34,788 nt of DNA from Candidatus Vogelbacteria bacterium RIFOXYD1_FULL_44_32 (GCA_001823065.1 MHTJ01000002.1:119532-154319); one strand, 5' to 3'. Positions 23,440 to 30,319 are shown, numbered from the stretch's first letter. The notes: a model not told the origin generated them from the letters alone. Numbers and translations: made by a program.

Positions 23440-24042
23440 ATGTCCACTACTACCAAAACAGAATTAATGAAAGCCATCCGGGATGAGGTTTTAGCGCTAA
23501 AAATTTCACCCCTATACGAATATCGGGCGGCCAATGGCTATTTCCCGGTGATTGGGGAGGGTAGCCATGAGGCCTCAATTATGTTTATTGGCGAAGCGCC
23601 CGGTAAAAATGAAGCTCAAACCGCACGCCCTTTTTGTGGGGCGTCTGGTAAAATTTTAGACGAGTTGCTGGCGACTATTGGTCTCGCTCGAGCCAGTGTC
23701 TATATCACTAATATTGTCAAAGATCGGCCACCCGAAAACCGGGACCCACTACCGGCGGAAATTATGCTCTATTCGCCATTTTTAGATCGGCAGATTGATA
23801 TTATTCGCCCCAAAGTCATCGCTACTTTAGGGCGCTTTGCGATGAAATATATCCTTGATAAATATGGGGCGATTGAAAATTCTAATTCGATTTCTAGTTT
23901 GCATGGCACCTTGATTAAAGCCCTTGCTCCTCATGGGGAAGTAGTGGTTTTACCGCTTTATCACCCAGCCGCCACTATTTACAATCAGTCACTCAAAGAG
24001 ACCTTAAAGAAAGATTTTAAAGAGCTGAAAAAATTCATTTAA
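23440..24042 (+). CDS. udg: Uracil-DNA glycosylase, family 4-like
   Basis: GEAPG, RPF.G..G, TNIVKDRPPENRDP, YHPAA. Confidence 0.93.
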   Translation: MSTTTKTELMKAIRDEVLALKISPLYEYRAANGYFPVIGEGSHEASIMFIGEAPGKNEAQTARPFCGASGKILDELLATIGLARASVYITNIVKDRPPENRDPLPAEIMLYSPFLDRQIDIIRPKVIATLGRFAMKYILDKYGAIENSNSISSLHGTLIKALAPHGEVVVLPLYHPAATIYNQSLKETLKKDFKELKKFI

Positions 24043-24064
24043 AGATTATGATATACTCGAAATA

Positions 24065-24844
24065 ATGAAACCAGTAGCTTTAATTTCTTGGAATGTCAAC
24101 GGGATTCGGGCAGCCGAGCGGAAAGGTTTTTTGGATTTTTTAGCCACCAGTAAATATGATGTGGTCGCTGTGCAAGAGACCAAAGTTCACAATATCGCCC
24201 AACTGTCCCCAGCCCTAGTTCAGCCTGAGGGCTATAATTCTTATTGGGATTGTTGTGAGACCAAAAAGGGCTACAGTGGTGTGGCAACTTTTTCTAAACT
24301 TATTCCGGAAAAAATAAAAACTGATTTTGGTAATAATATTTTGACAGCCGAGGGGAGAATGATTGAAACTCACTTTGCAAATTTTATTTTTTTGAATATT
24401 TATTTTCCTAATGGGGGAGCCAGTCCCGCTCGGCTGGCCTACAAGCTAGAGTTTTATCAGGAATTTGTCGCTTATCTTAAAAAATTAAAAAAATTAGGCA
24501 AACCGATTATTTTCACCGGTGATGTCAATACAGCCCACGAGGAAATAGATTTGGCCCGACCAAAGCAAAATGAGAAAGTCTCGGGTTTTATGAGGGTCGA
24601 GCGTGATTGGCTGGATGAGTTTGCTAAAATTGGTTTTGTGGACACTTTTCGCTTTAAACATCCAGAAACTGTAAAATATAGCTGGTGGGACCAAAAAACA
24701 GCCGCACGGGAGCGTAATGTGGGTTGGCGGATCGATTATTTTTATGTCAGTACTGATTTGGTCGATAATATAAAGCGGGCGGCCATTCTCGACGAAGTTT
24801 ACGGTTCCGATCACGCGCCGATTTTATTGGAGTTGGAGTTTTAA
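24065..24844 (+). CDS. xth: Exodeoxyribonuclease III (AP endonuclease)
   Basis: SWNVNGIRA, QETK, GYSGV, YFPNG, GDVNTAH, GWRIDY, SDHAP. Confidence 0.97.
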   Translation: MKPVALISWNVNGIRAAERKGFLDFLATSKYDVVAVQETKVHNIAQLSPALVQPEGYNSYWDCCETKKGYSGVATFSKLIPEKIKTDFGNNILTAEGRMIETHFANFIFLNIYFPNGGASPARLAYKLEFYQEFVAYLKKLKKLGKPIIFTGDVNTAHEEIDLARPKQNEKVSGFMRVERDWLDEFAKIGFVDTFRFKHPETVKYSWWDQKTAARERNVGWRIDYFYVSTDLVDNIKRAAILDEVYGSDHAPILLELEF

Positions 24845-24861
24845 GGAAGAGTAAAATTAAT

Positions 24862-24987
24862 AGCCAAATTTCGTTGCCGGTGTTTGGATGCTGGAACCTT
24901 GCACAGCGCGACGGCGCGAGCAGAGCAAAAACTTAACAAAGTTTTATGTGTGTTCCAGCAGACAAATACCAAGAAAGAAATTTGGCT
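24862..24987 (+). repeat. Long-hairpin intergenic element, copy 1 (30-nt core at 24896-24925)
   Basis: Nested inverted repeats AGCCAAATTTC/GAAATTTGGCT, GGTGTTTG/CAAATACC and TGCTGGAAC/GTTCCAGCA enclose ACCTTGCACAGCGCGACGGCGCGAGCAGAG. Confidence 0.85.
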
Positions 24988-24999
24988 TACCTTTAATTT

Positions 25000-25716
25000 A
25001 TGTTATACATCTACTTTGGATCAGACATAAATAAATCTCAACTGGCTTGGCGGAAATTTGCCGAGGCGGTAAAAACTAAACGCCCAGACGCCGAAGTTTT
25101 TGAATTGGCGGAGGATATTTTTTCGGAAACATCTGCCGACGAGCTTTTGCATGGACAGGGTTTGTTTGTGAGTAAACATATTGTTTTAGCTAAAAGATTA
25201 TTGCAAAACCAGGAGGCCGAGCAGTGGTTATTTGATAATCTAAAAGATATTAGTGAAGCCGACCATATGTTTTTACTATGGGAAGAAAAATTGTTGGCAC
25301 CCCAAAAACAAAAATTAGAAAAGTTTGGGGCTGAACTAAAAGAATTTATTAAAAAACCAGAAGCAGAAATTAAAGACAATTTTATTTTTTCAATTGGTGA
25401 TGCATTGGGAGCGCGTGATCGGCTAAAGTTGTGGAAGGCGGTGGCTGGGGCTAGTCTAAAGGGCTATGAACCAGAAGAAATTTTTTGGCAGTTGTTTGGG
25501 ACAGCACGCAATATGGCCTTGGTCGCTAGGGAAGAGAGTGACCAAGATATACCACTTCATCCATTTGTAGCTAAAAAGACACGGGGTTATTTAAGGAATT
25601 GGGGTGACGAAGGTGCGCTCAAGCTCACTGGTGACCTGATGGCCTTATATCATAATGTGCGGCGCGAGAGTCGGGATTTAGATGTAGCACTGGAGCGGTT
25701 TGCGCTTGAGATATAG
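25000..25716 (+). CDS. holA: DNA polymerase III delta subunit, short form
   Basis: MLYIYFGSD start, GLFVSKHIV (SLF-like clamp-contact motif), IFSIGDAL, LHPFVAKK, ALERFAL end. Confidence 0.75.
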   Translation: MLYIYFGSDINKSQLAWRKFAEAVKTKRPDAEVFELAEDIFSETSADELLHGQGLFVSKHIVLAKRLLQNQEAEQWLFDNLKDISEADHMFLLWEEKLLAPQKQKLEKFGAELKEFIKKPEAEIKDNFIFSIGDALGARDRLKLWKAVAGASLKGYEPEEIFWQLFGTARNMALVAREESDQDIPLHPFVAKKTRGYLRNWGDEGALKLTGDLMALYHNVRRESRDLDVALERFALEI

Positions 25717-25757
25717 ACTAATGATATTTTTTTATGTAGAATACGTGCGTTAGATTT

Positions 25758-25830
25758 GCCCTGTTAGCTCAGTTGGTAGAGCAGCTCCCTTTTAAGGAGA
25801 TGGTCGCAGGTTCGACTCCTGCACGGGGCA
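25758..25830 (+). tRNA. tRNA-Lys (anticodon UUU), CCA not encoded
   Basis: Acceptor GCCCTGT/ACGGGGC, D-arm GCTC/GAGC, anticodon loop CTTTTAA, T-arm GCAGG-TTCGACT-CCTGC. Upstream promoter TAGACT-17-TAGAAT at 25714-25742. Confidence 0.96.
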
Positions 25831-26180
25831 CAAAAAGGCACTTTTTGTGCCCCGTGAGCGAGACAACTGCTTGTCTCGCGTCAGGAGTCGAAAGGACTTT
25901 CAATGTTTGTGAGCGAAGAGCAAACAAACCTGAAAGTCACCCGCGACCGTAGGTCGAGACTCACTTATTGTTACTGTAAAAATATCTTGTCTCCCGTGCA
26001 GGAGTCGAACGCCGGAGCGCACGAAGTCGGAGGTCAGCAGAGCTGGAGGTCAGCAGAGCTCCGGTGCGAGGCGGTGCCTAGACCGAGACTTGGCGACGGC
26101 CCAGGATCGAGTCGAGGGAGACTCCTGCAAAAGTATCAGTCGAAAGTCACCCGCGACCGTAGGTCGAGACTCCTGCACCA
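25831..26180 (+). repeat. tRNA-3'-end mirror repeat array
   Basis: Antisense copies of the tRNA 3' end at 25847-25892 (split by a hairpin) and 25989-26010. Sense fragments GACTCCTGCA near 26120 and 26168. 31-nt direct repeat at 25932-62 / 26142-72. 2 x 16-nt tandem at 26029-60. Confidence 0.85.
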
Positions 26181-26261
26181 CTTCAAATCTTGCCATTTCC
26201 CAATTTAGGCATAGAATCGGTGATAGAAAAAACATCCGCATAGCGGAGGAGGATTGTAAAA

Positions 26262-26561
26262 ATGGGAACAGTAACAACAGGTGTAAATCCTCAGTTATTA
26301 CCGAGAGTCAAAGATTTGCCGAAAAGAGACAGAGCCCTTCGTTTTGGGGACAGTCTTGTCTTTCATTCCGAAACCCATCGGGTCTTGGTGGTGCGTCGGG
26401 GGCCTGATGGGCCGGTGGTTGTCCACTCGGCCGACTTCGACGGCCTTACCCATTTTGGGTTCCTTCAGTATGTCGAACAGCAGGTATATCTGTTTGGGCT
26501 TAAATACCAGAAGTCCAGCCTGGTTTTTGGCCCGACAGATATTGCTTATGATGTTTACTAG
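26262..26561 (+). CDS. GC-rich orphan hypothetical protein
   Basis: Promoter TTGCCA-16-TAGAAT (26190-26217), SD GGAGGAGG (26245-52), hairpin at 26568-26595 after the stop. Confidence 0.7.
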   Translation: MGTVTTGVNPQLLPRVKDLPKRDRALRFGDSLVFHSETHRVLVVRRGPDGPVVVHSADFDGLTHFGFLQYVEQQVYLFGLKYQKSSLVFGPTDIAYDVY

Positions 26562-26620
26562 TCTTTTGGCCCGGGGCGCGTTTGCGTTCCGGGTCGTCGT
26601 TTGTTACAAATATCATACTT

Positions 26621-27100
26621 GTGACTAAGAAAACTTTTTTAATTCTCTATAACATTCGTTCTGCCTACAATGTGGGGGCTATTTTTCGTACAGCGGACGC
26701 GGTAGGGATAAGTAAAATATATTTGGTGGGGGTCACACCGTGCCCGGCCGACAAGTTTGGCCGAGTAAACAGCCAAATCGCTAAAACGGCTTTGGGGGCG
26801 GAAAAGACGGTGGCTTGGGAGTATAAAAAAACGATTGCCCCACTTATGGCCAAACTAAAAAAAGATGGGGCTCAGGTGGTTGCGCTTGAGCAAGATGAAG
26901 AGGCGATTGACTATCGGAAGCTAAAACCAAAAGGTGATTGGGCACTTATTCTAGGCGAAGAAACCAAGGGCCTGTCGAAAGCTATTTTAAGTCAGTCTGA
27001 TTCGATTGTAGAAATCCCGATGAAAGGGAAGAAAGAGTCTTTAAATGTGTCGGTTGCGGCCGGGGTGGCGTTATTTCAAATAATAGGCAATAAAATTTAA
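26621..27100 (+). CDS. SPOUT (TrmH/SpoU family) RNA 2'-O-methyltransferase
   Basis: NIRSAYNVGAIFRTADA, LILGEETKG, EIPMKGKKESLNVSVAAG. Likely GTG start at 26621. Confidence 0.93.
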   Translation: MTKKTFLILYNIRSAYNVGAIFRTADAVGISKIYLVGVTPCPADKFGRVNSQIAKTALGAEKTVAWEYKKTIAPLMAKLKKDGAQVVALEQDEEAIDYRKLKPKGDWALILGEETKGLSKAILSQSDSIVEIPMKGKKESLNVSVAAGVALFQIIGNKI

Positions 27101-27106
27101 AAGCCC

Positions 27107-27137
27107 AAAATATTGGACACCGAGTGTCCAATATTTT
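27107..27137. terminator. Bidirectional terminator
   Basis: AAAATATTGGACAC-CGA-GTGTCCAATATTTT. Confidence 0.8.
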
Positions 27138-27144
27138 TTACAAT

Positions 27145-27308
27145 AAAAAGGGCCGTCACTGGCTCGAGGACCCCTTTCACTCGCCGCTACTAGGGGATAC
27201 TTGGGATAATGTGTTTGGTCCCAGATGTATTGCCTGGGCACACCATCCTTAGTATTGTCTGCTCTTGCCAACCCAGATGGAATTCCTAAATGGGTTTGTG
27301 ACGGCCTT
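27145..27308 (-). ncRNA. Candidate multi-helix ncRNA with an AGUA/GAA (loop E / bulged-G) hairpin
   Basis: Closing stem GGCCGTCAC/GTGACGGCC followed by TTTTT. Several internal helices. Minus-strand promoter TTGCTA-16-TATAGT at 27340-27313. Confidence 0.65.
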
Positions 27309-27405
27309 GTTGACTATATAATATTAATCAAATTTAGCAAGATTTGGATGACAAAATTAGTATTATAGGCCAAAAAATAAGGGTATTGTAAGGTGGCTAA
27401 AACAC

Positions 27406-27434
27406 TTGACAAAATAGATAGAAAAGTGTATAAT
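27406..27434 (+). promoter_or_regulatory. Perfect consensus sigma70 promoter
   Basis: TTGACA-17-TATAAT. Confidence 0.85.
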
Positions 27435-27497
27435 CTAGGATAGGTAGTGTGGGTACCAGACAAAGACTCGCGTAGGCGGGTTGAAGGAGAAAGAAGA

Positions 27498-27977
27498 ATG
27501 AACAAAAAAGTGGAACCAATTCCTGAAGATAAGCGTCTTCAAGAATTGGTTGAAGAAGCTCTGGTCGGAGGCCAGAGCCGAGGTCTCACCCCAGAAATCG
27601 ACGGCGCCATGGCCACCATGGACTGCTATGAGCTGTCCAAGATGGCACAGTCTCTTTCGGGAGGAAGAGTGCATGCGCTCTCCTCATCGGAAGTCAATTC
27701 CATTGCTGGTGGAGCGGTCTCATCTTTTGAGTCTAGGTGGCTCGCCACTCAGATTCTGGAGGGAGATCGCGAACAGTTCTTGTTGGAGAACCCGGAATTC
27801 ATTTCCTCTTCAGAAGAAGAGGGTAGCGAATTCGGGTTTTGGAATCAGGCGGCGCGGGTGAAGGGGGAGGAGGTGCGGACTGCGGTGGTGCTGGCCTGGC
27901 ACGGTAAGTATGTGCGGGTCTCCACGCGCCGGTTGCGCGTCGGGGGTGTTCCAATTTTGTTCTACGTCAATGTTTAG
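27498..27977 (+). CDS. GC-rich orphan hypothetical protein
   Basis: ATG at 27498 after SD GAAGGAG. Consensus promoter upstream and terminator downstream. Confidence 0.7.
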   Translation: MNKKVEPIPEDKRLQELVEEALVGGQSRGLTPEIDGAMATMDCYELSKMAQSLSGGRVHALSSSEVNSIAGGAVSSFESRWLATQILEGDREQFLLENPEFISSSEEEGSEFGFWNQAARVKGEEVRTAVVLAWHGKYVRVSTRRLRVGGVPILFYVNV

Positions 27978-27990
27978 TCTTGTTTCTTTG

Positions 27991-28027
27991 GTCGCGTCTG
28001 GTCTTTATGATCGGGCGCGACTTTTTT
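27991..28027 (+). terminator. Intrinsic terminator
   Basis: GTCGCGTCTGGTC...GATCGGGCGCGAC-TTTTTT. Confidence 0.75.
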
Positions 28028-28034
28028 GTTTAAA

Positions 28035-28901
28035 TTACTTCTGACACTTCTCACAAAAGTGAGTTCCGCGTCCTGCGTGTTTTATTTTAGATATTTTAGT
28101 GCCACAGGTTGTGCAGGGTAGATTGGCACGGCCGTAAACATTTAAGTATTTTACAAAACCACCTTTCTCGCCCGTTGAGGTAACATAATTGCGGGCCGAG
28201 GTACCTTTCATTTTGATGGAGAGTTTTAGGACGGTGAGCATGGATTTATATAATTTTTCAATTTCACTTTTTGAAAGACTGAAAATTTTCCGAGTGGGGA
28301 GTACTTTAGCGAGGAAGCTAGCTTCGTCTATATAAATATTACCCATACCAGCGATGAGGTGCTGGTCGAAGAGGGTTTGCTTGATAGTCCGATTTGGATA
28401 CTTGGTGAGAAGCTCGGTAAAAATATTGAGGGTAAACTTTTTATCCAAAGGTTCAGCTCCGTGCGGGTCCAAAATGATATTTTTTTCCGCCTCGGTTACT
28501 AACTTGAGCCAGCCAAATTTGCGCAGGTCGTTGAAATAGAGGGTAGAGCCGTCGGTAAATTTAAACTCGGCCTGGGTATAGTTGTTTGGCAGATTTCTGC
28601 CGCCGTCACGCTGGGGGTGGCCGCCAACTACAGCTTTGCCAGTTTTGGGAACGAATATAAGCTGGCCGGTCATCTTGAGGTGAACTAGGAAAAAGTGTTT
28701 ACCCGAGAGGGAAATGACCACAATCTTGGCTCGGCGGGATACGCCCAAGACTTTTTTCTTGCTAATATTTTGGGCAAAGTCTTGGGCCGAAAGTGGGAGG
28801 ACCATTTTAGGCACGTGAACAACCACCGACTTGAAAGTCTTGCCACTGATCGCTTTATTTAATTGTCGGGAGACAGTTTCTACCTCTGGTAATTCAGGCA
28901 T
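28035..28901 (-). CDS. mutM: Formamidopyrimidine-DNA glycosylase Fpg
   Basis: MPELPEVE, HLKMTG, DLRKFG, GMGNIYIDE, C-terminal Zn finger. Confidence 0.97.
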   Translation of the reverse strand: MPELPEVETVSRQLNKAISGKTFKSVVVHVPKMVLPLSAQDFAQNISKKKVLGVSRRAKIVVISLSGKHFFLVHLKMTGQLIFVPKTGKAVVGGHPQRDGGRNLPNNYTQAEFKFTDGSTLYFNDLRKFGWLKLVTEAEKNIILDPHGAEPLDKKFTLNIFTELLTKYPNRTIKQTLFDQHLIAGMGNIYIDEASFLAKVLPTRKIFSLSKSEIEKLYKSMLTVLKLSIKMKGTSARNYVTSTGEKGGFVKYLNVYGRANLPCTTCGTKISKIKHAGRGTHFCEKCQK

Positions 28902-28933
28902 GTTCGTTCTAATTATTAGCTGTTACTCATTCG

Positions 28934-29025
28934 CCAATACTGTTTGAAATACACGAATATTTTTCTGCTGAAAAATTTCTCTGCTCGCGCCGTCGCGCTG
29001 TGCAAGGTATTTCAAACAGTGTTGG
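28934..29025 (-). repeat. Long-hairpin intergenic element, copy 2 (30-nt core at 28979-29008)
   Basis: 19-bp inverted repeat CCAATACTGTTTGAAATAC/GTATTTCAAACAGTGTTGG around the exact reverse complement of the copy-1 core. Confidence 0.85.
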
Positions 29026-29026
29026 T

Positions 29027-30319
29027 TCATTCGTCCACTTTGACTTTTTGTTGAAGGAAAGAAGTTAATTCACTACGGGCCACCTCCGCATCGCTCCACG
29101 GTTCTTTAGCGCCATTGGCCCGCATAATATATGGGTCAGTGCCTTTGCCGGTGATGATAATGACACTGCCAGTTTCGGCTTTCTCGATAGCTTTTCTAAT
29201 CGCCAGCCGGCGCTCCATAATTATTTCTTTCGGGGTGTGGGTGACACCAGATGCAACTTGGGTGGCAATTTGTTCGGGGTTTTCGTCGTAAGGGTCTTCG
29301 TCGGTGATAATAACTAGGCTGGCGTATTTGTCGGCGAGACCGCCCATAATTTGTCGGCGGTCGCTGTCGCGGCCACCACCGGTGCCACCCAAGACGGCAA
29401 TGATTTTATGGTCTTTGTAAATCTCGTAAACTTTTTGGAGCGAGTCGGCCGTGTGGGCGTAGTCGACAATGACTTTAAAATCTTGGAGACGGGCCAGTGT
29501 CGGGTCGGTGGGGGTGACTTGCTCCAGCCGGCCGGGGATACCAGAAAATTTTTCTATGGCTTGTTTTATTTTATCAGGACCAATGTTTTGACTTTTGGCG
29601 TAGGTAATCGCGAGCAGAATATTGTAAAGATTAAATTCACCCACGAGCTTGGTCTGGATCTTTTGGCCAGCGTAGGTGAAAAAGAGGCCGTCGACAAGGA
29701 GGGCATGGGGCTCGGCCTCGGCGAGGTGGCTCTCTAGCTTGGTCGCAATATTTATTTTCCGAAAATCATCAAGTGCTGGGTCGTCGCCATTGGTGACCAA
29801 AACTTTATTGGGTTTCCATGATGTGGCTAAAGCATGCGCGATTTTTAGTTTAGCTTCTTTATATTTGGCGAAAGAGCCGTGCGACTCAATATGCTCGGGT
29901 GAGAGGTTGGTGACCAAGAGAGCGTCGAGGGCAATAAATTTGTGGCGGAATTGTTTGGTGGCTTCGGAGCTGATTTCCAAAACGATATAGTCGCAATGGG
30001 CATCAACGGCTTCCCGAATTAGTTTTTGCAGGGTAAACCGTCCCGGGGTGGTCATTTTTAGGCGGTTTGGCCGGCTTTCGTTGCCGATTTTGAAACGCAC
30101 GGTCGAAACGAGGGCCGTTTTAAAACCAGCTTCTTCTAAAATCGCGCTCACGAGCTCGGTGGTGCTCGACTTGCCCTTGGTGCCAGTGACCGCTACTACT
30201 TTGATATGGCGGGCGGGGAAGCGGTAAATGAGGGCGCCAAGGAGGGCTAGTTTCCAGTGATAAATACTAAAAACCCAAGTGGGAACTATTTTTTTGATGA
30301 TATTTTTGATTTTTCCCAT
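29027..30319 (-). CDS. murE: UDP-N-acetylmuramyl-tripeptide synthetase MurE
   Basis: VTGTKGKSST, MTTPG, EISSE, TNLSPEH, VDYAHT, GGGRD, ITGKG. Confidence 0.92.
   Translation of the reverse strand: MGKIKNIIKKIVPTWVFSIYHWKLALLGALIYRFPARHIKVVAVTGTKGKSSTTELVSAILEEAGFKTALVSTVRFKIGNESRPNRLKMTTPGRFTLQKLIREAVDAHCDYIVLEISSEATKQFRHKFIALDALLVTNLSPEHIESHGSFAKYKEAKLKIAHALATSWKPNKVLVTNGDDPALDDFRKINIATKLESHLAEAEPHALLVDGLFFTYAGQKIQTKLVGEFNLYNILLAITYAKSQNIGPDKIKQAIEKFSGIPGRLEQVTPTDPTLARLQDFKVIVDYAHTADSLQKVYEIYKDHKIIAVLGGTGGGRDSDRRQIMGGLADKYASLVIITDEDPYDENPEQIATQVASGVTHTPKEIIMERRLAIRKAIEKAETGSVIIITGKGTDPYIMRANGAKEPWSDAEVARSELTSFLQQKVKVDE

What the first reader, a model, noticed from the sequence alone, without database searches (positions are those of the whole stretch)
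24862..29025. Identical 30-nt core carried by two different long hairpins
Seen: ACCTTGCACAGCGCGACGGCGCGAGCAGAG occurs exactly at 24896-24925 (+) and 28979-29008 (-). In both copies it is followed by a small AT-rich hairpin (AAAACTT-AAC-AAAGTTTT versus ATTTTTC-AGCA-GAAAAAT) and GTGT, and it is closed by a long stem whose sequence differs completely between copies. Both lie in the sense of the flanking genes (xth to holA, murE to mutM), and both neighbour base-excision-repair genes. A conserved core with freely exchanged but still paired stems suggests selection on structure. Inference: a new three-way-junction cis-regulatory or processing RNA, or a REPIN-like element with a protein-recognised core.
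Basis: partly seen in the sequence, partly recalled or inferred. Interest (0 to 1): 0.78.

Follow-up and report, generated by a model that had tools for sequence, protein, structure and literature searches.

The report
Structured palindromic repeat of ultra-small bacteria
The two hairpins are copies of a previously undescribed family of about 90-130-base repeated DNA elements in ultra-small (Patescibacteria) bacteria that fill gaps between genes in either direction and, in related genomes, sit in frame inside essential genes, much like the palindromic elements known from Rickettsia.

Summary
In detail: the 30-nt core occurs exactly twice in the window, each copy inside a long, different stem. 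It is not a two-copy curiosity. A covariance model finds 11 strong copies (17 at E<=1) in this 705-kb genome and hits in 45 of 101 genomes of the order, 1-36 per genome; no Rfam family matches. Covariation supports a three-way junction: variable stem P1, a core hairpin, and hairpin P3. Orientation relative to genes is not kept: the xth copy is inverted in three sister genomes, and sense and antisense placements are about equal. In other genomes the element lies in frame inside 14 Pfam-supported housekeeping genes plus one unannotated ORF. One copy is missing from all four sister genomes. Best reading: a selfish, probably mobile palindromic repeat resembling Rickettsia palindromic elements, but with a conserved centre and freely changing stems. 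The mover is unknown; Y1 transposase presence does not track it. A cis-regulatory RNA is not supported. Other repeat families were noted earlier in this genome; this family was not.

The parts
24863..24986 (+). Copy 1, whole element (outer stem GCCAAATTTC...GAAATTTGGC enclosing core and P3), between the xth-like gene and ORF 25000-25716
   Evidence: Sequence; fold -58.4 kcal/mol, z -7.5; covariance-model hit 84.3 bits at G000:C2:144413-144504
24896..24925 (+). Copy 1, 30-nt core. It folds on itself: pairs 3:28, 5:27, 6:26, 7:25, then G.A-type mismatches, then P2
   Evidence: Exact match. Covariation at 5:27 (UA 84, CG 10, UG 6 of 101); further pair types at 5:27, 6:26 and 3:28 read by eye from the subtype alignment
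24906..24917 (+). Copy 1, P2 hairpin GCGC-GACG-GCGC inside the core
   Evidence: Pair 12:21 of the core takes CG 66, GC 21, UA 6, AU 3, UG 3 of 101. Sister-genome orthologues have GCAC..GUGC and GGCC..GGCC
24925..24949 (+). Copy 1, P3 hairpin (GCAAAAACTT-AACA-AAGTTTT, bulged A, TGT)
   Evidence: All 10 P3 pairs show changes on both sides; 95% of cells paired
24950..24952 (+). Copy 1, conserved GTG joining P3 to the 3' strand of P1
   Evidence: Alignment columns 70-72 read G, T, G in 98, 88 or more, and 95 of 101 copies, from the pair rows; GTA in subtype B
28934..29025 (-). Copy 2, whole element (CCAACACTGTTTGAAAT...ATTTCAAACAGTATTGG), between the Mur-ligase gene and mutM
   Evidence: Sequence; fold z -5.1; best covariance-model hit in the genome, 96.5 bits
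28979..29008 (-). Copy 2, 30-nt core
   Evidence: Exact match
28955..28979 (-). Copy 2, P3 hairpin (GAAATTTTTC-AGCA-GAAAAAT, bulged A, TTC). Its base GAA..TTC covaries with GCA..TGC of copy 1
   Evidence: pair 45:68: CG 79, AT 12 of 101
29026..29033 (-). CGAATGAA, left member of an 8-nt direct repeat flanking copy 2; it contains the stop codon of the Mur-ligase gene
   Evidence: Sequence. The repeat is perfect (CGAATGAG twice) in sister genome G002. Possible target-site duplication, not proven
28926..28933 (-). CGAATGAG, right member of the direct repeat flanking copy 2
   Evidence: Sequence
24065..24844 (+). Flanking gene, Exo_endo_phos family (xth-like)
   Evidence: Pfam E 1.5e-30
25000..25716 (+).
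28035..28901 (-). Flanking gene mutM/fpg
   Evidence: Pfam Fapy_DNA_glyco, H2TH, zf-FPG_IleRS
29027..30319 (-). Flanking Mur-ligase gene (murE-like)
   Evidence: Pfam Mur_ligase_M and Mur_ligase_C

Best explanation
The two hairpins are copies of a lineage-specific family of non-coding palindromic repeats, about 90-130 nt long, that behave as selfish and probably mobile DNA. One strand of each unit can fold into a three-way junction: a long outer stem P1 of free sequence, a conserved core hairpin (short helix, G.A-type mismatches, GC-rich P2 with a GRCG loop), and a hairpin P3 with a bulged A and an AGCA loop, joined by GUG. Shown: copies accumulate in the tiny gaps between genes in either orientation. 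Shown: where the reading frame stays open they persist inside coding sequences and add about 35-40 codons. Inferred: the conserved centre, not the ends, is the part recognised by whatever copies or moves the element, as in REP or attC-type structure-specific sites. Inferred: stem pairing is kept either by that requirement or by repair within the palindrome. The enzyme and the insertion chemistry are unknown.
For: Multi-copy and patchy: 17 hits in the own genome, 11 above 50 bits. Sister genomes have 2, 18, 4 and 12 hits. 45 of 101 genomes of the order have hits at 1-36 copies, while one genus has 0 of 9. Only 3 of 150 other genomes sampled across the phylum have hits. Recent copying: G000:C2:101051 and G000:C4:46149 share identical stems in unrelated flanks, and six further near-identical copies lie in four sister genomes, most in unrelated flanks (one pair looks orthologous); similarity stops at AGCGAGG...CCGAGCG. 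Presence/absence: the copy at G000:C5:26206 is missing from the orthologous spacer of all four sister genomes. The murE-mutM spacer holds the element in G000, G002 and G004 but a GIY-YIG ORF in G001 and G003. Orientation is free: the xth copy is inverted as a whole in G002, G003 and G004. Across 72 loci flanks are ++ 21, -- 18, +- 25, -+ 6. In the own genome about 4 copies are sense and 7 antisense. In-frame genic copies: 14 Pfam-supported hosts (LeuRS x2, GT4 x2, PMT_2, Aminotran_5, MiaA x3, RecR, MetAP, TsaD, PGM, MPG) plus one unannotated ORF, out of 72 loci. Of the 12 host proteins queried, G000 orthologues of 8 (RecR, MetAP, TsaD, MiaA x2, the Aminotran_5 protein, LeuRS, GT4) align with a clean gap at the insert, a ninth (MiaA L042) splits into two pieces around it, and 3 found no orthologue. 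No pair of flanking ORFs looked like two halves of one gene (86 flanking ORFs). Wobble pairs show no strand bias in the variable stems: P1 has G:U 47 against A:C 49, as expected for a DNA palindrome rather than an RNA-only helix. No sigma-70-like promoter or terminator-like site was reported at either window copy.
Against: No transposase or other partner gene was linked. Y1_Tnp genes are as frequent without the element as with it (38 of 56 against 29 of 45), and G061 has 30 copies but no Y1_Tnp. GIY-YIG ORFs are near-universal (99 of 101), so they say nothing either way. No target-site duplication could be established across copies. Conservation is the reverse of a classical MITE: the centre is kept and the arms vary. 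Orthologous copies keep pairing through compensatory changes, which also fits selection for a host function. In the core and at the base of P3, G:U outnumbers A:C (9 against 0, and 26 G:U at one P3 pair), hinting that one particular strand folds. Many core columns in the 101-sequence alignment were fixed by the search pattern used to collect it, so their invariance there is partly ascertainment. Orientation counts rest on a crude ORF caller of my own.
Confidence: 0.62

Rival explanations
1. A host-serving structured RNA module. Transcribed as part of neighbouring mRNAs, the junction would act as a processing, stabilising or insulating signal, for example an RNase or RNA-binding-protein site, as reported for some REP, ERIC and Correia repeats.
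For: Strong, helix-specific covariation: 89.3% of cells paired against 71.5% in shuffles, covariation score 0.485 against 0.170, 0 of 500 shuffles as high. The core is highly conserved across many families of the order. Orthologous copies show compensatory changes. G:U exceeds A:C in the core. Copies favour convergent gaps (+- 25) over divergent gaps (-+ 6). The 2024 MITE review describes such RNase effects for Correia and ERIC (PMC10969869, passages read).
Against: Orientation to transcription is not kept: three sister genomes carry the same copy inverted, and ++ 21 against -- 18. There is no gene-class association. 56 of 101 genomes of the order have no hit, including a whole genus, 0 of 9. 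Wobble counts in P1 are symmetric. Copies inside essential coding sequences in both orientations are hard to reconcile with a cleavage signal.
Confidence: 0.2
2. A DNA-level host site: a hairpin or cruciform bound by a chromosomal protein (nucleoid organisation, replication or recombination), spread through the genome because the host uses it.
For: Orientation is irrelevant to genes. Palindromic symmetry is maintained equally on both strands in P1. Copies are dispersed over all five contigs.
Against: Copy number runs from 0 to 36 among close relatives with similar genome sizes, and 56 of 101 genomes have none. Insertion into coding sequences and near-identical copies in unrelated flanks look like spread, not placement. 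No candidate binding protein was identified.
Confidence: 0.1
3. A self-removing RNA insert, intron-like: the junction directs excision of the element from transcripts, which would make insertions in essential genes harmless.
For: Compact conserved junction of ribozyme-like size; long P1 brings the two ends together. Insertions occur in essential genes.
Against: All 15 genic copies are in frame and free of stop codons. Yet over about 105 nt each of the three sense frames is open in only 43, 39 and 54 of 101 copies, and no gene split by an out-of-frame copy was seen. That pattern is what selection on a translated insert predicts and is not needed if the insert were excised. Antisense genic copies exist. 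No known ribozyme family matches, even at E up to 10.
Confidence: 0.04

Closest known systems
Rickettsia palindromic elements (RPEs)
   Same: Short (about 100-150 bp) palindromic repeats in a small, streamlined genome. They are found between genes and inserted in frame in unrelated housekeeping genes, where they encode a family-specific peptide, and no transposase is known. RPE features are taken from passages of the 2024 MITE review PMC10969869.
   Different: A different phylum and no sequence relation was tested. Here the centre is conserved and folds into a three-way junction while the arms vary with compensatory changes. Whether RPEs show that pattern I did not check.
REP / REPIN elements with RAYT (TnpA-REP) transposases
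   Same: Structure-defined intergenic palindromes at the ends of genes, in both orientations, with a conserved recognised motif beside a variable stem (general description recalled from memory; the lead came from earlier scan notes).
   Different: Much longer and branched, and not built as a pair of short hairpins. Y1_Tnp gene presence does not track the element (29 of 45 against 38 of 56). The single Y1_Tnp gene of this genome is flanked by an unrelated palindrome, AAAATATTGGACAC/GTGTCCAATATTTT, and the covariance model finds only chance-level matches there (best 7.7 bits, E about 2).
ERIC and similar MITE-like repeats (Correia, BOX, RUP)
   Same: Imperfect palindromes of about 100-150 bp with copy number varying between relatives, mostly intergenic with occasional intragenic copies and effects on transcripts (PMC10969869, passages read).
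   Different: MITEs are defined by conserved terminal inverted repeats, a target-site duplication and a parent IS. Here the termini vary, a duplication is unproven, and no parent element was found.
Rfam structured RNA families (ribozymes, riboswitches, cis-regulatory motifs)
   Same: Size, three-way-junction shape and level of covariation resemble small ribozymes or riboswitch aptamers.
   Different: No match to any of 4227 families at gathering score, or at E up to 10, over either copy. Genomic behaviour (orientation, in-frame copies, patchiness) is not that of a cis-regulatory RNA.

Membership tests
RPE-like in-frame palindromic repeats | Multi-copy palindromic unit of about 100-150 bp without coding capacity of its own | tested here: met
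   Units of 92-131 nt; 11 strong copies in the own genome and up to 36 in relatives
RPE-like in-frame palindromic repeats | Copies inserted in frame in unrelated protein-coding genes, absent from orthologues | tested here: met
   14 Pfam-supported host genes plus one unannotated ORF. Of 12 host proteins queried against G000, 8 align with a clean gap at the insert, one splits into two pieces around it, and 3 found no orthologue
RPE-like in-frame palindromic repeats | Family-specific conserved peptide in genic copies | tested here: met
   12 of 12 sense genic copies use the frame giving ..LAQRDGASR.., although frames 0, 1 and 2 are open in 43, 39 and 54 of 101 copies. Nine of the 12 belong to one subfamily, so they are not independent
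RPE-like in-frame palindromic repeats | Insert retained in mRNA and protein | not testable with these tools
   No RNA run was listed for the window
MITE | Conserved terminal inverted repeats shared by copies | tested here: not met
   Outer stems differ completely between copies while the centre is conserved
MITE | Target-site duplication | tested here: inconclusive
   An 8-nt direct repeat flanks copy 2, and CGAG-type repeats flank many copies, but they may be part of the element. An automated scan found no repeat of 4 nt or more in 71 of 99 copies; its stem boundaries were unreliable
MITE | Related autonomous IS carrying a transposase | tested here: not met
   Genes between close pairs of copies are housekeeping genes; no element-bounded ORF was seen
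REP/REPIN-RAYT system | Co-occurrence with a RAYT (Y1 HUH) gene flanked by the same repeat | tested here: not met
   29 of 45 element-positive against 38 of 56 element-negative genomes carry Y1_Tnp. The own Y1_Tnp gene has a different palindrome and only chance-level model matches
Cis-regulatory RNA (riboswitch or leader) | Fixed sense orientation upstream of a consistent gene class | tested here: not met
   Orthologous copy inverted in 3 of 4 sister genomes; ++ 21 against -- 18; diverse neighbours
Known self-cleaving ribozyme classes | Match to an Rfam ribozyme model | tested here: not met
   No hit at E up to 10. Catalysis itself is not testable here

The most novel reading that the evidence does not exclude
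The element is the non-coding half of an undescribed, structure-specific mobility system. A folded three-way junction whose conserved centre (core hairpin with G.A mismatches plus the AGCA-loop hairpin) is the recognition signal would be copied into gene ends and coding loops by an enzyme that is not a Y1/RAYT transposase. This would make it a new way for selfish DNA to colonise, and remodel the proteins of, the smallest bacterial genomes.
Probability: 0.25. Interest if true: 0.8.

Novelty: new variant of a known kind. Interest (0 to 1): 0.6.

Why it matters
Patescibacteria have some of the smallest bacterial genomes, with almost no non-coding DNA. Even so, this one family supplies 11 or more units in 705 kb here and up to 36 in relatives, and it fills much of several intergenic gaps. 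It shows that strongly covarying, junction-shaped 'RNA-like' motifs in these genomes can be selfish repeats, which is a warning for RNA-discovery screens. It also gives a second, independent case, after Rickettsia, of palindromic repeats written in frame into essential enzymes such as LeuRS, TsaD, MetAP, RecR and MiaA. That makes two questions testable in a new lineage: how such inserts are tolerated, and whether they create new protein surface. The unknown mover is a concrete target for discovery.

Tried and rejected
- **Rfam:** searches at gathering score and at E up to 10 found nothing over either copy.
- **Exact or near-exact core search:** gives only 2 copies in the genome and 7 of 101 genomes. 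This undercounts, and the covariance model replaced it.
- **Junction model pairing core positions 7-9 with the 3' GUG:** rejected. It shows no covariation, and subtypes B and D do not keep it, whereas 5:27, 6:26 and 3:28 covary.
- **Y1/HUH transposase as partner:** no association.
- **GIY-YIG ORFs as partner:** uninformative, 99 of 101 genomes.
- **Autonomous version:** ORFs between close pairs of copies in G076 and G069 are housekeeping genes.
- **Target-site duplication by automated stem tracing:** the fold over-extended the stems, so the result is unreliable.
- **Empty site at the G000:C4:55011/55145 spacer:** G004 has a membrane-protein gene there, so it is not a clean empty site.
- **RNA evidence:** no RNA holder was listed for window 24000-29400.
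- **Peptide search in the protein database:** only 8 proteins, limited by the word index.
- **Literature:** 'palindromic element' + Patescibacteria, 0 papers. 'miniature inverted-repeat' + 'candidate phyla radiation', 1 unrelated preprint. A 16-nt core string, 0 papers. Two broader searches gave nothing relevant in their listings.
- **Earlier notes of this scan:** a sequence look-up with copy 1 found no look-alike.
Full report
**1. Observation**

The 30-nt core occurs exactly at 24896-24925 (+) and 28979-29008 (-). No shuffle of the window gave any match even with three mismatches. In both copies the core is followed by an AT-rich hairpin and GTG(T), and is enclosed by a long stem whose sequence is unrelated between the copies.

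Each region folds much better than shuffled controls: z -7.5 and -5.1, with 0 of 200 shuffles as good. The neighbours are an Exo_endo_phos (xth-like) gene, an ORF without a Pfam match, a Mur-ligase gene and fpg/mutM. No Rfam family matches either copy, at gathering score or at E up to 10.

**2. It is a large family, not two copies**

Exact or near-exact search finds only these two copies in the 705-kb genome and hits in 7 of 101 relatives.

A degenerate core pattern scanned over one genome per prokaryote species gave 116 stretches. I set aside nine loci as chance matches in GC-rich non-Patescibacteria records. The rest are Patescibacteria/Paceibacteria-type MAGs, and 101 distinct copies had enough flank to align.

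A covariance model built from them gave these counts:

| Genomes searched | Result |
|---|---|
| Own genome | 17 hits at E<=1, 11 above 50 bits |
| Four sister genomes | 2, 18, 4 and 12 hits |
| 101 genomes of the order | 45 with a hit, 1-36 copies each; one genus 0 of 9 |
| 150 other genomes sampled across the phylum | 3 with a hit |

The own genome holds several subtypes that differ in the core.

**3. Anatomy**

An unbiased mutual-information scan recovers the following pairs:
- the outer stem P1;
- the AT-rich hairpin P3, including its base (GCA..UGC against GAA..UUC);
- one pair of the GC hairpin P2 that takes all four Watson-Crick types;
- a longer-range pair between core positions 5 and 27.

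On the named structure, 89.3% of cells pair against 71.5% in shuffles, and the covariation score is 0.485 against 0.170, with 0 of 500 shuffles as high. Slid controls drop to 28-56% paired.

The more diverged subtypes show further pair types at 5:27 (U:A, C:G, A:U), 6:26 (G:C, C:G, U:A) and 3:28 (C:G, A:U), read by eye from the alignment. Many P2 sequences occur (GCGC, GGGC, GGCC, GCAC, GACU, AUUC...). These subtypes do not support pairing of core positions 7-9 with the 3' GUG.

The unit is therefore a three-way junction:
- P1;
- a core hairpin: short helix, G.A-type mismatches, then P2 with a GRCG loop;
- P3 with a bulged A and an AGCA loop, joined back to P1 by GUG.

Caveat: many core columns of the 101-sequence alignment were fixed by the collecting pattern, so their invariance there is partly by construction.

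**4. Genomic behaviour**

- **Orientation is free.** The copy between xth and the next ORF is present at the same place in G002, G003 and G004. There it is inverted as a whole, including the asymmetric bulges of P1. Over 72 loci with enough flank, my simple ORF caller gives ++ 21, -- 18, +- 25, -+ 6, and 2 undetermined. In the own genome about four copies are sense and seven antisense to their neighbours, wedged 5-40 nt from the genes.
- **Neighbours are unrelated housekeeping genes.** Of 86 flanking ORFs I noted two base-excision-repair genes, so the repair-gene link in the window looks coincidental.
- **Copies come and go.**
  - The copy at G000:C5:26206 is absent from the orthologous spacer in all four sister genomes, which have 11-50 nt of AT-rich spacer instead.
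  - The murE-mutM spacer carries the element in G000, G002 and G004. In G001 and G003 it carries a small GIY-YIG ORF bracketed by an inverted repeat.
  - Two copies in the own genome have identical stems in unrelated flanks. Six more near-identical units lie in four sister genomes, most in unrelated flanks, and similarity ends sharply at AGCGAGG...CCGAGCG.
- **Copies sit in frame inside genes.**
  - In 14 Pfam-supported genes and one unannotated ORF out of 72 loci, the element is read through without a stop.
  - Twelve are sense: LeuRS twice, GT4 twice, PMT_2, Aminotran_5, MiaA twice, RecR, MetAP, TsaD and the unannotated ORF. Three are antisense: PGM, MiaA and MPG glycosylase.
  - Of the 12 host proteins queried against the own genome, 8 align with a clean gap of about 30-40 residues at the insert. 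One (MiaA L042) splits into two pieces around the insert. Three (PGM, MPG and the unannotated ORF) found no orthologue at E<=1e-5.
  - MiaA carries the insert at the same site in three MAGs, twice sense and once antisense.
  - Over about 105 nt each sense frame is open in only 43, 39 and 54 of 101 copies. Yet every genic copy is open, and all 12 sense ones use the frame giving ..LAQRDGASR... Nine of these belong to one subfamily, so they are not independent.
  - No flanking pair looked like the halves of a gene broken by an out-of-frame copy. This is the pattern expected if only translatable insertions survive.
  - A search of the protein database with the insert region found 8 proteins of different families.
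- **Pairing is kept in place.** Orthologous copies in sister genomes differ by compensatory double changes in P1 and P2. The LeuRS insert shared by two MAGs does the same even though this changes the encoded peptide.
- **Wobble pairs show no strand bias in the variable stems.** P1 has G:U 47 against A:C 49. P3 has 31 against 12, of which 26 G:U come from one position. In the core, G:U is 9 and A:C is 0. The stems therefore look like a DNA palindrome, while the core may fold on one particular strand.
- **No signal sites.** No promoter-like or terminator-like site was reported at either window copy.

**5. Interpretation**

The best reading (0.62) is a selfish, probably mobile palindromic repeat. 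The closest described analogue is the Rickettsia palindromic element: palindromic, about 150 bp, in a reduced genome, often inserted in frame in unrelated genes with a conserved peptide (PMC10969869, passages read).

It differs from MITEs in that the termini vary and the centre is conserved. No parent IS was seen and a target duplication is unproven. An 8-nt direct repeat flanks copy 2 and includes the murE stop codon. CGAG-type repeats flank many copies, and if folded they would give tandem G.A pairs, so they may be part of the element.

It differs from REP/REPIN systems in size and shape and in showing no link to Y1 transposase genes: 29 of 45 against 38 of 56 genomes, and 30 copies in a genome with no Y1_Tnp. 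The only such gene in this genome is flanked by a different palindrome.

What recognises the conserved centre, and how the unit is copied, remain inferred, not shown. In-place maintenance of pairing could reflect selection or repair within the palindrome; I could not tell these apart.

**6. Rivals**

- **Host-serving RNA module (0.2).** It keeps the covariation and core conservation on its side. It is weakened by free orientation, patchiness and coding-sequence copies.
- **DNA-level host site (0.1).** It fits the orientation data but not the copy-number range or the spread pattern.
- **Self-excising RNA (0.04).** It is disfavoured by the strict in-frame, stop-free state of all genic copies.

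No RNA run was listed for the window, so expression and processing remain untested.

**7. Novelty**

I found no description in the searched library. The 2024 MITE review does not mention Patescibacteria or candidate phyla (0 occurrences). Supplementary files were not consulted.

Earlier notes of this scan describe other palindromic repeat families and a hairpin-flanked Y1 transposase gene in this genome.

I rate it a new variant of a known kind, with interest 0.6. The boldest reading still open is a new structure-specific mobility system whose signal is the junction core (probability about 0.25).

Noticed in passing
G003:C48 (L130) and G001:C41 (L133), murE-mutM spacer; G000:C1:12972-13184 (L192, inverted repeat 1457-1479 / 1751-1773): Small GIY-YIG ORFs (about 85-97 aa) are bracketed by 16-23-bp inverted repeats; in G003 the start and stop codons lie inside the two arms. 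In two sister genomes such a cassette occupies exactly the spacer that holds element copy 2 in the window. PF01541 hits, mostly several small ORFs, occur in 99 of 101 genomes of the order. They look like a separate family of hairpin-bracketed mobile genes.
   Followed up: partly
G000:C4:46149-46273 (L150); G002 loci L178 and L182: A second small GC-rich hairpin (about 33 nt, CTGCCCGC...GCGGGC) is nested inside the P2 loop or other places of some element copies. An otherwise identical copy lacks it. This is one repeat family inserted into another.
   Followed up: no
L081:3-2558 and L082:1443-4022 (LeuRS genes of two MAGs): Besides the palindromic insert, one LeuRS carries a NUDIX domain and the other a Ham1p_like (ITPase-type) domain within the synthetase. 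An earlier scan note reported the Nudix-LeuRS fusion in this genome.
   Followed up: no
window 29026-29033 and 28926-28933 (minus strand): An 8-nt direct repeat, CGAATGAA / CGAATGAG, flanks copy 2 and includes the stop codon of the Mur-ligase gene. It is perfect in sister genome G002. Many other copies are closed by CGAG...CGAG, which would form tandem G.A pairs in a hairpin.
   Followed up: partly
L009 (G055:C14), minus strand 1231-1531; G000:C4:55011-55236: Copies can be clustered: three in tandem in one spacer of G055, and two of different subtype in opposite orientation in one spacer of the own genome.
   Followed up: no
window 25758-25830 (+): A tRNA gene (Rfam 69.4 bits) lies directly after ORF 25000-25716.
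   Followed up: no
several contig ends, e.g. L019, L049, L032, L060, L086: Some MAG contigs end 10-35 nt from the core or inside P3, which suggests that the repeat breaks assemblies. Copy numbers in fragmented MAGs are therefore lower bounds.
   Followed up: no
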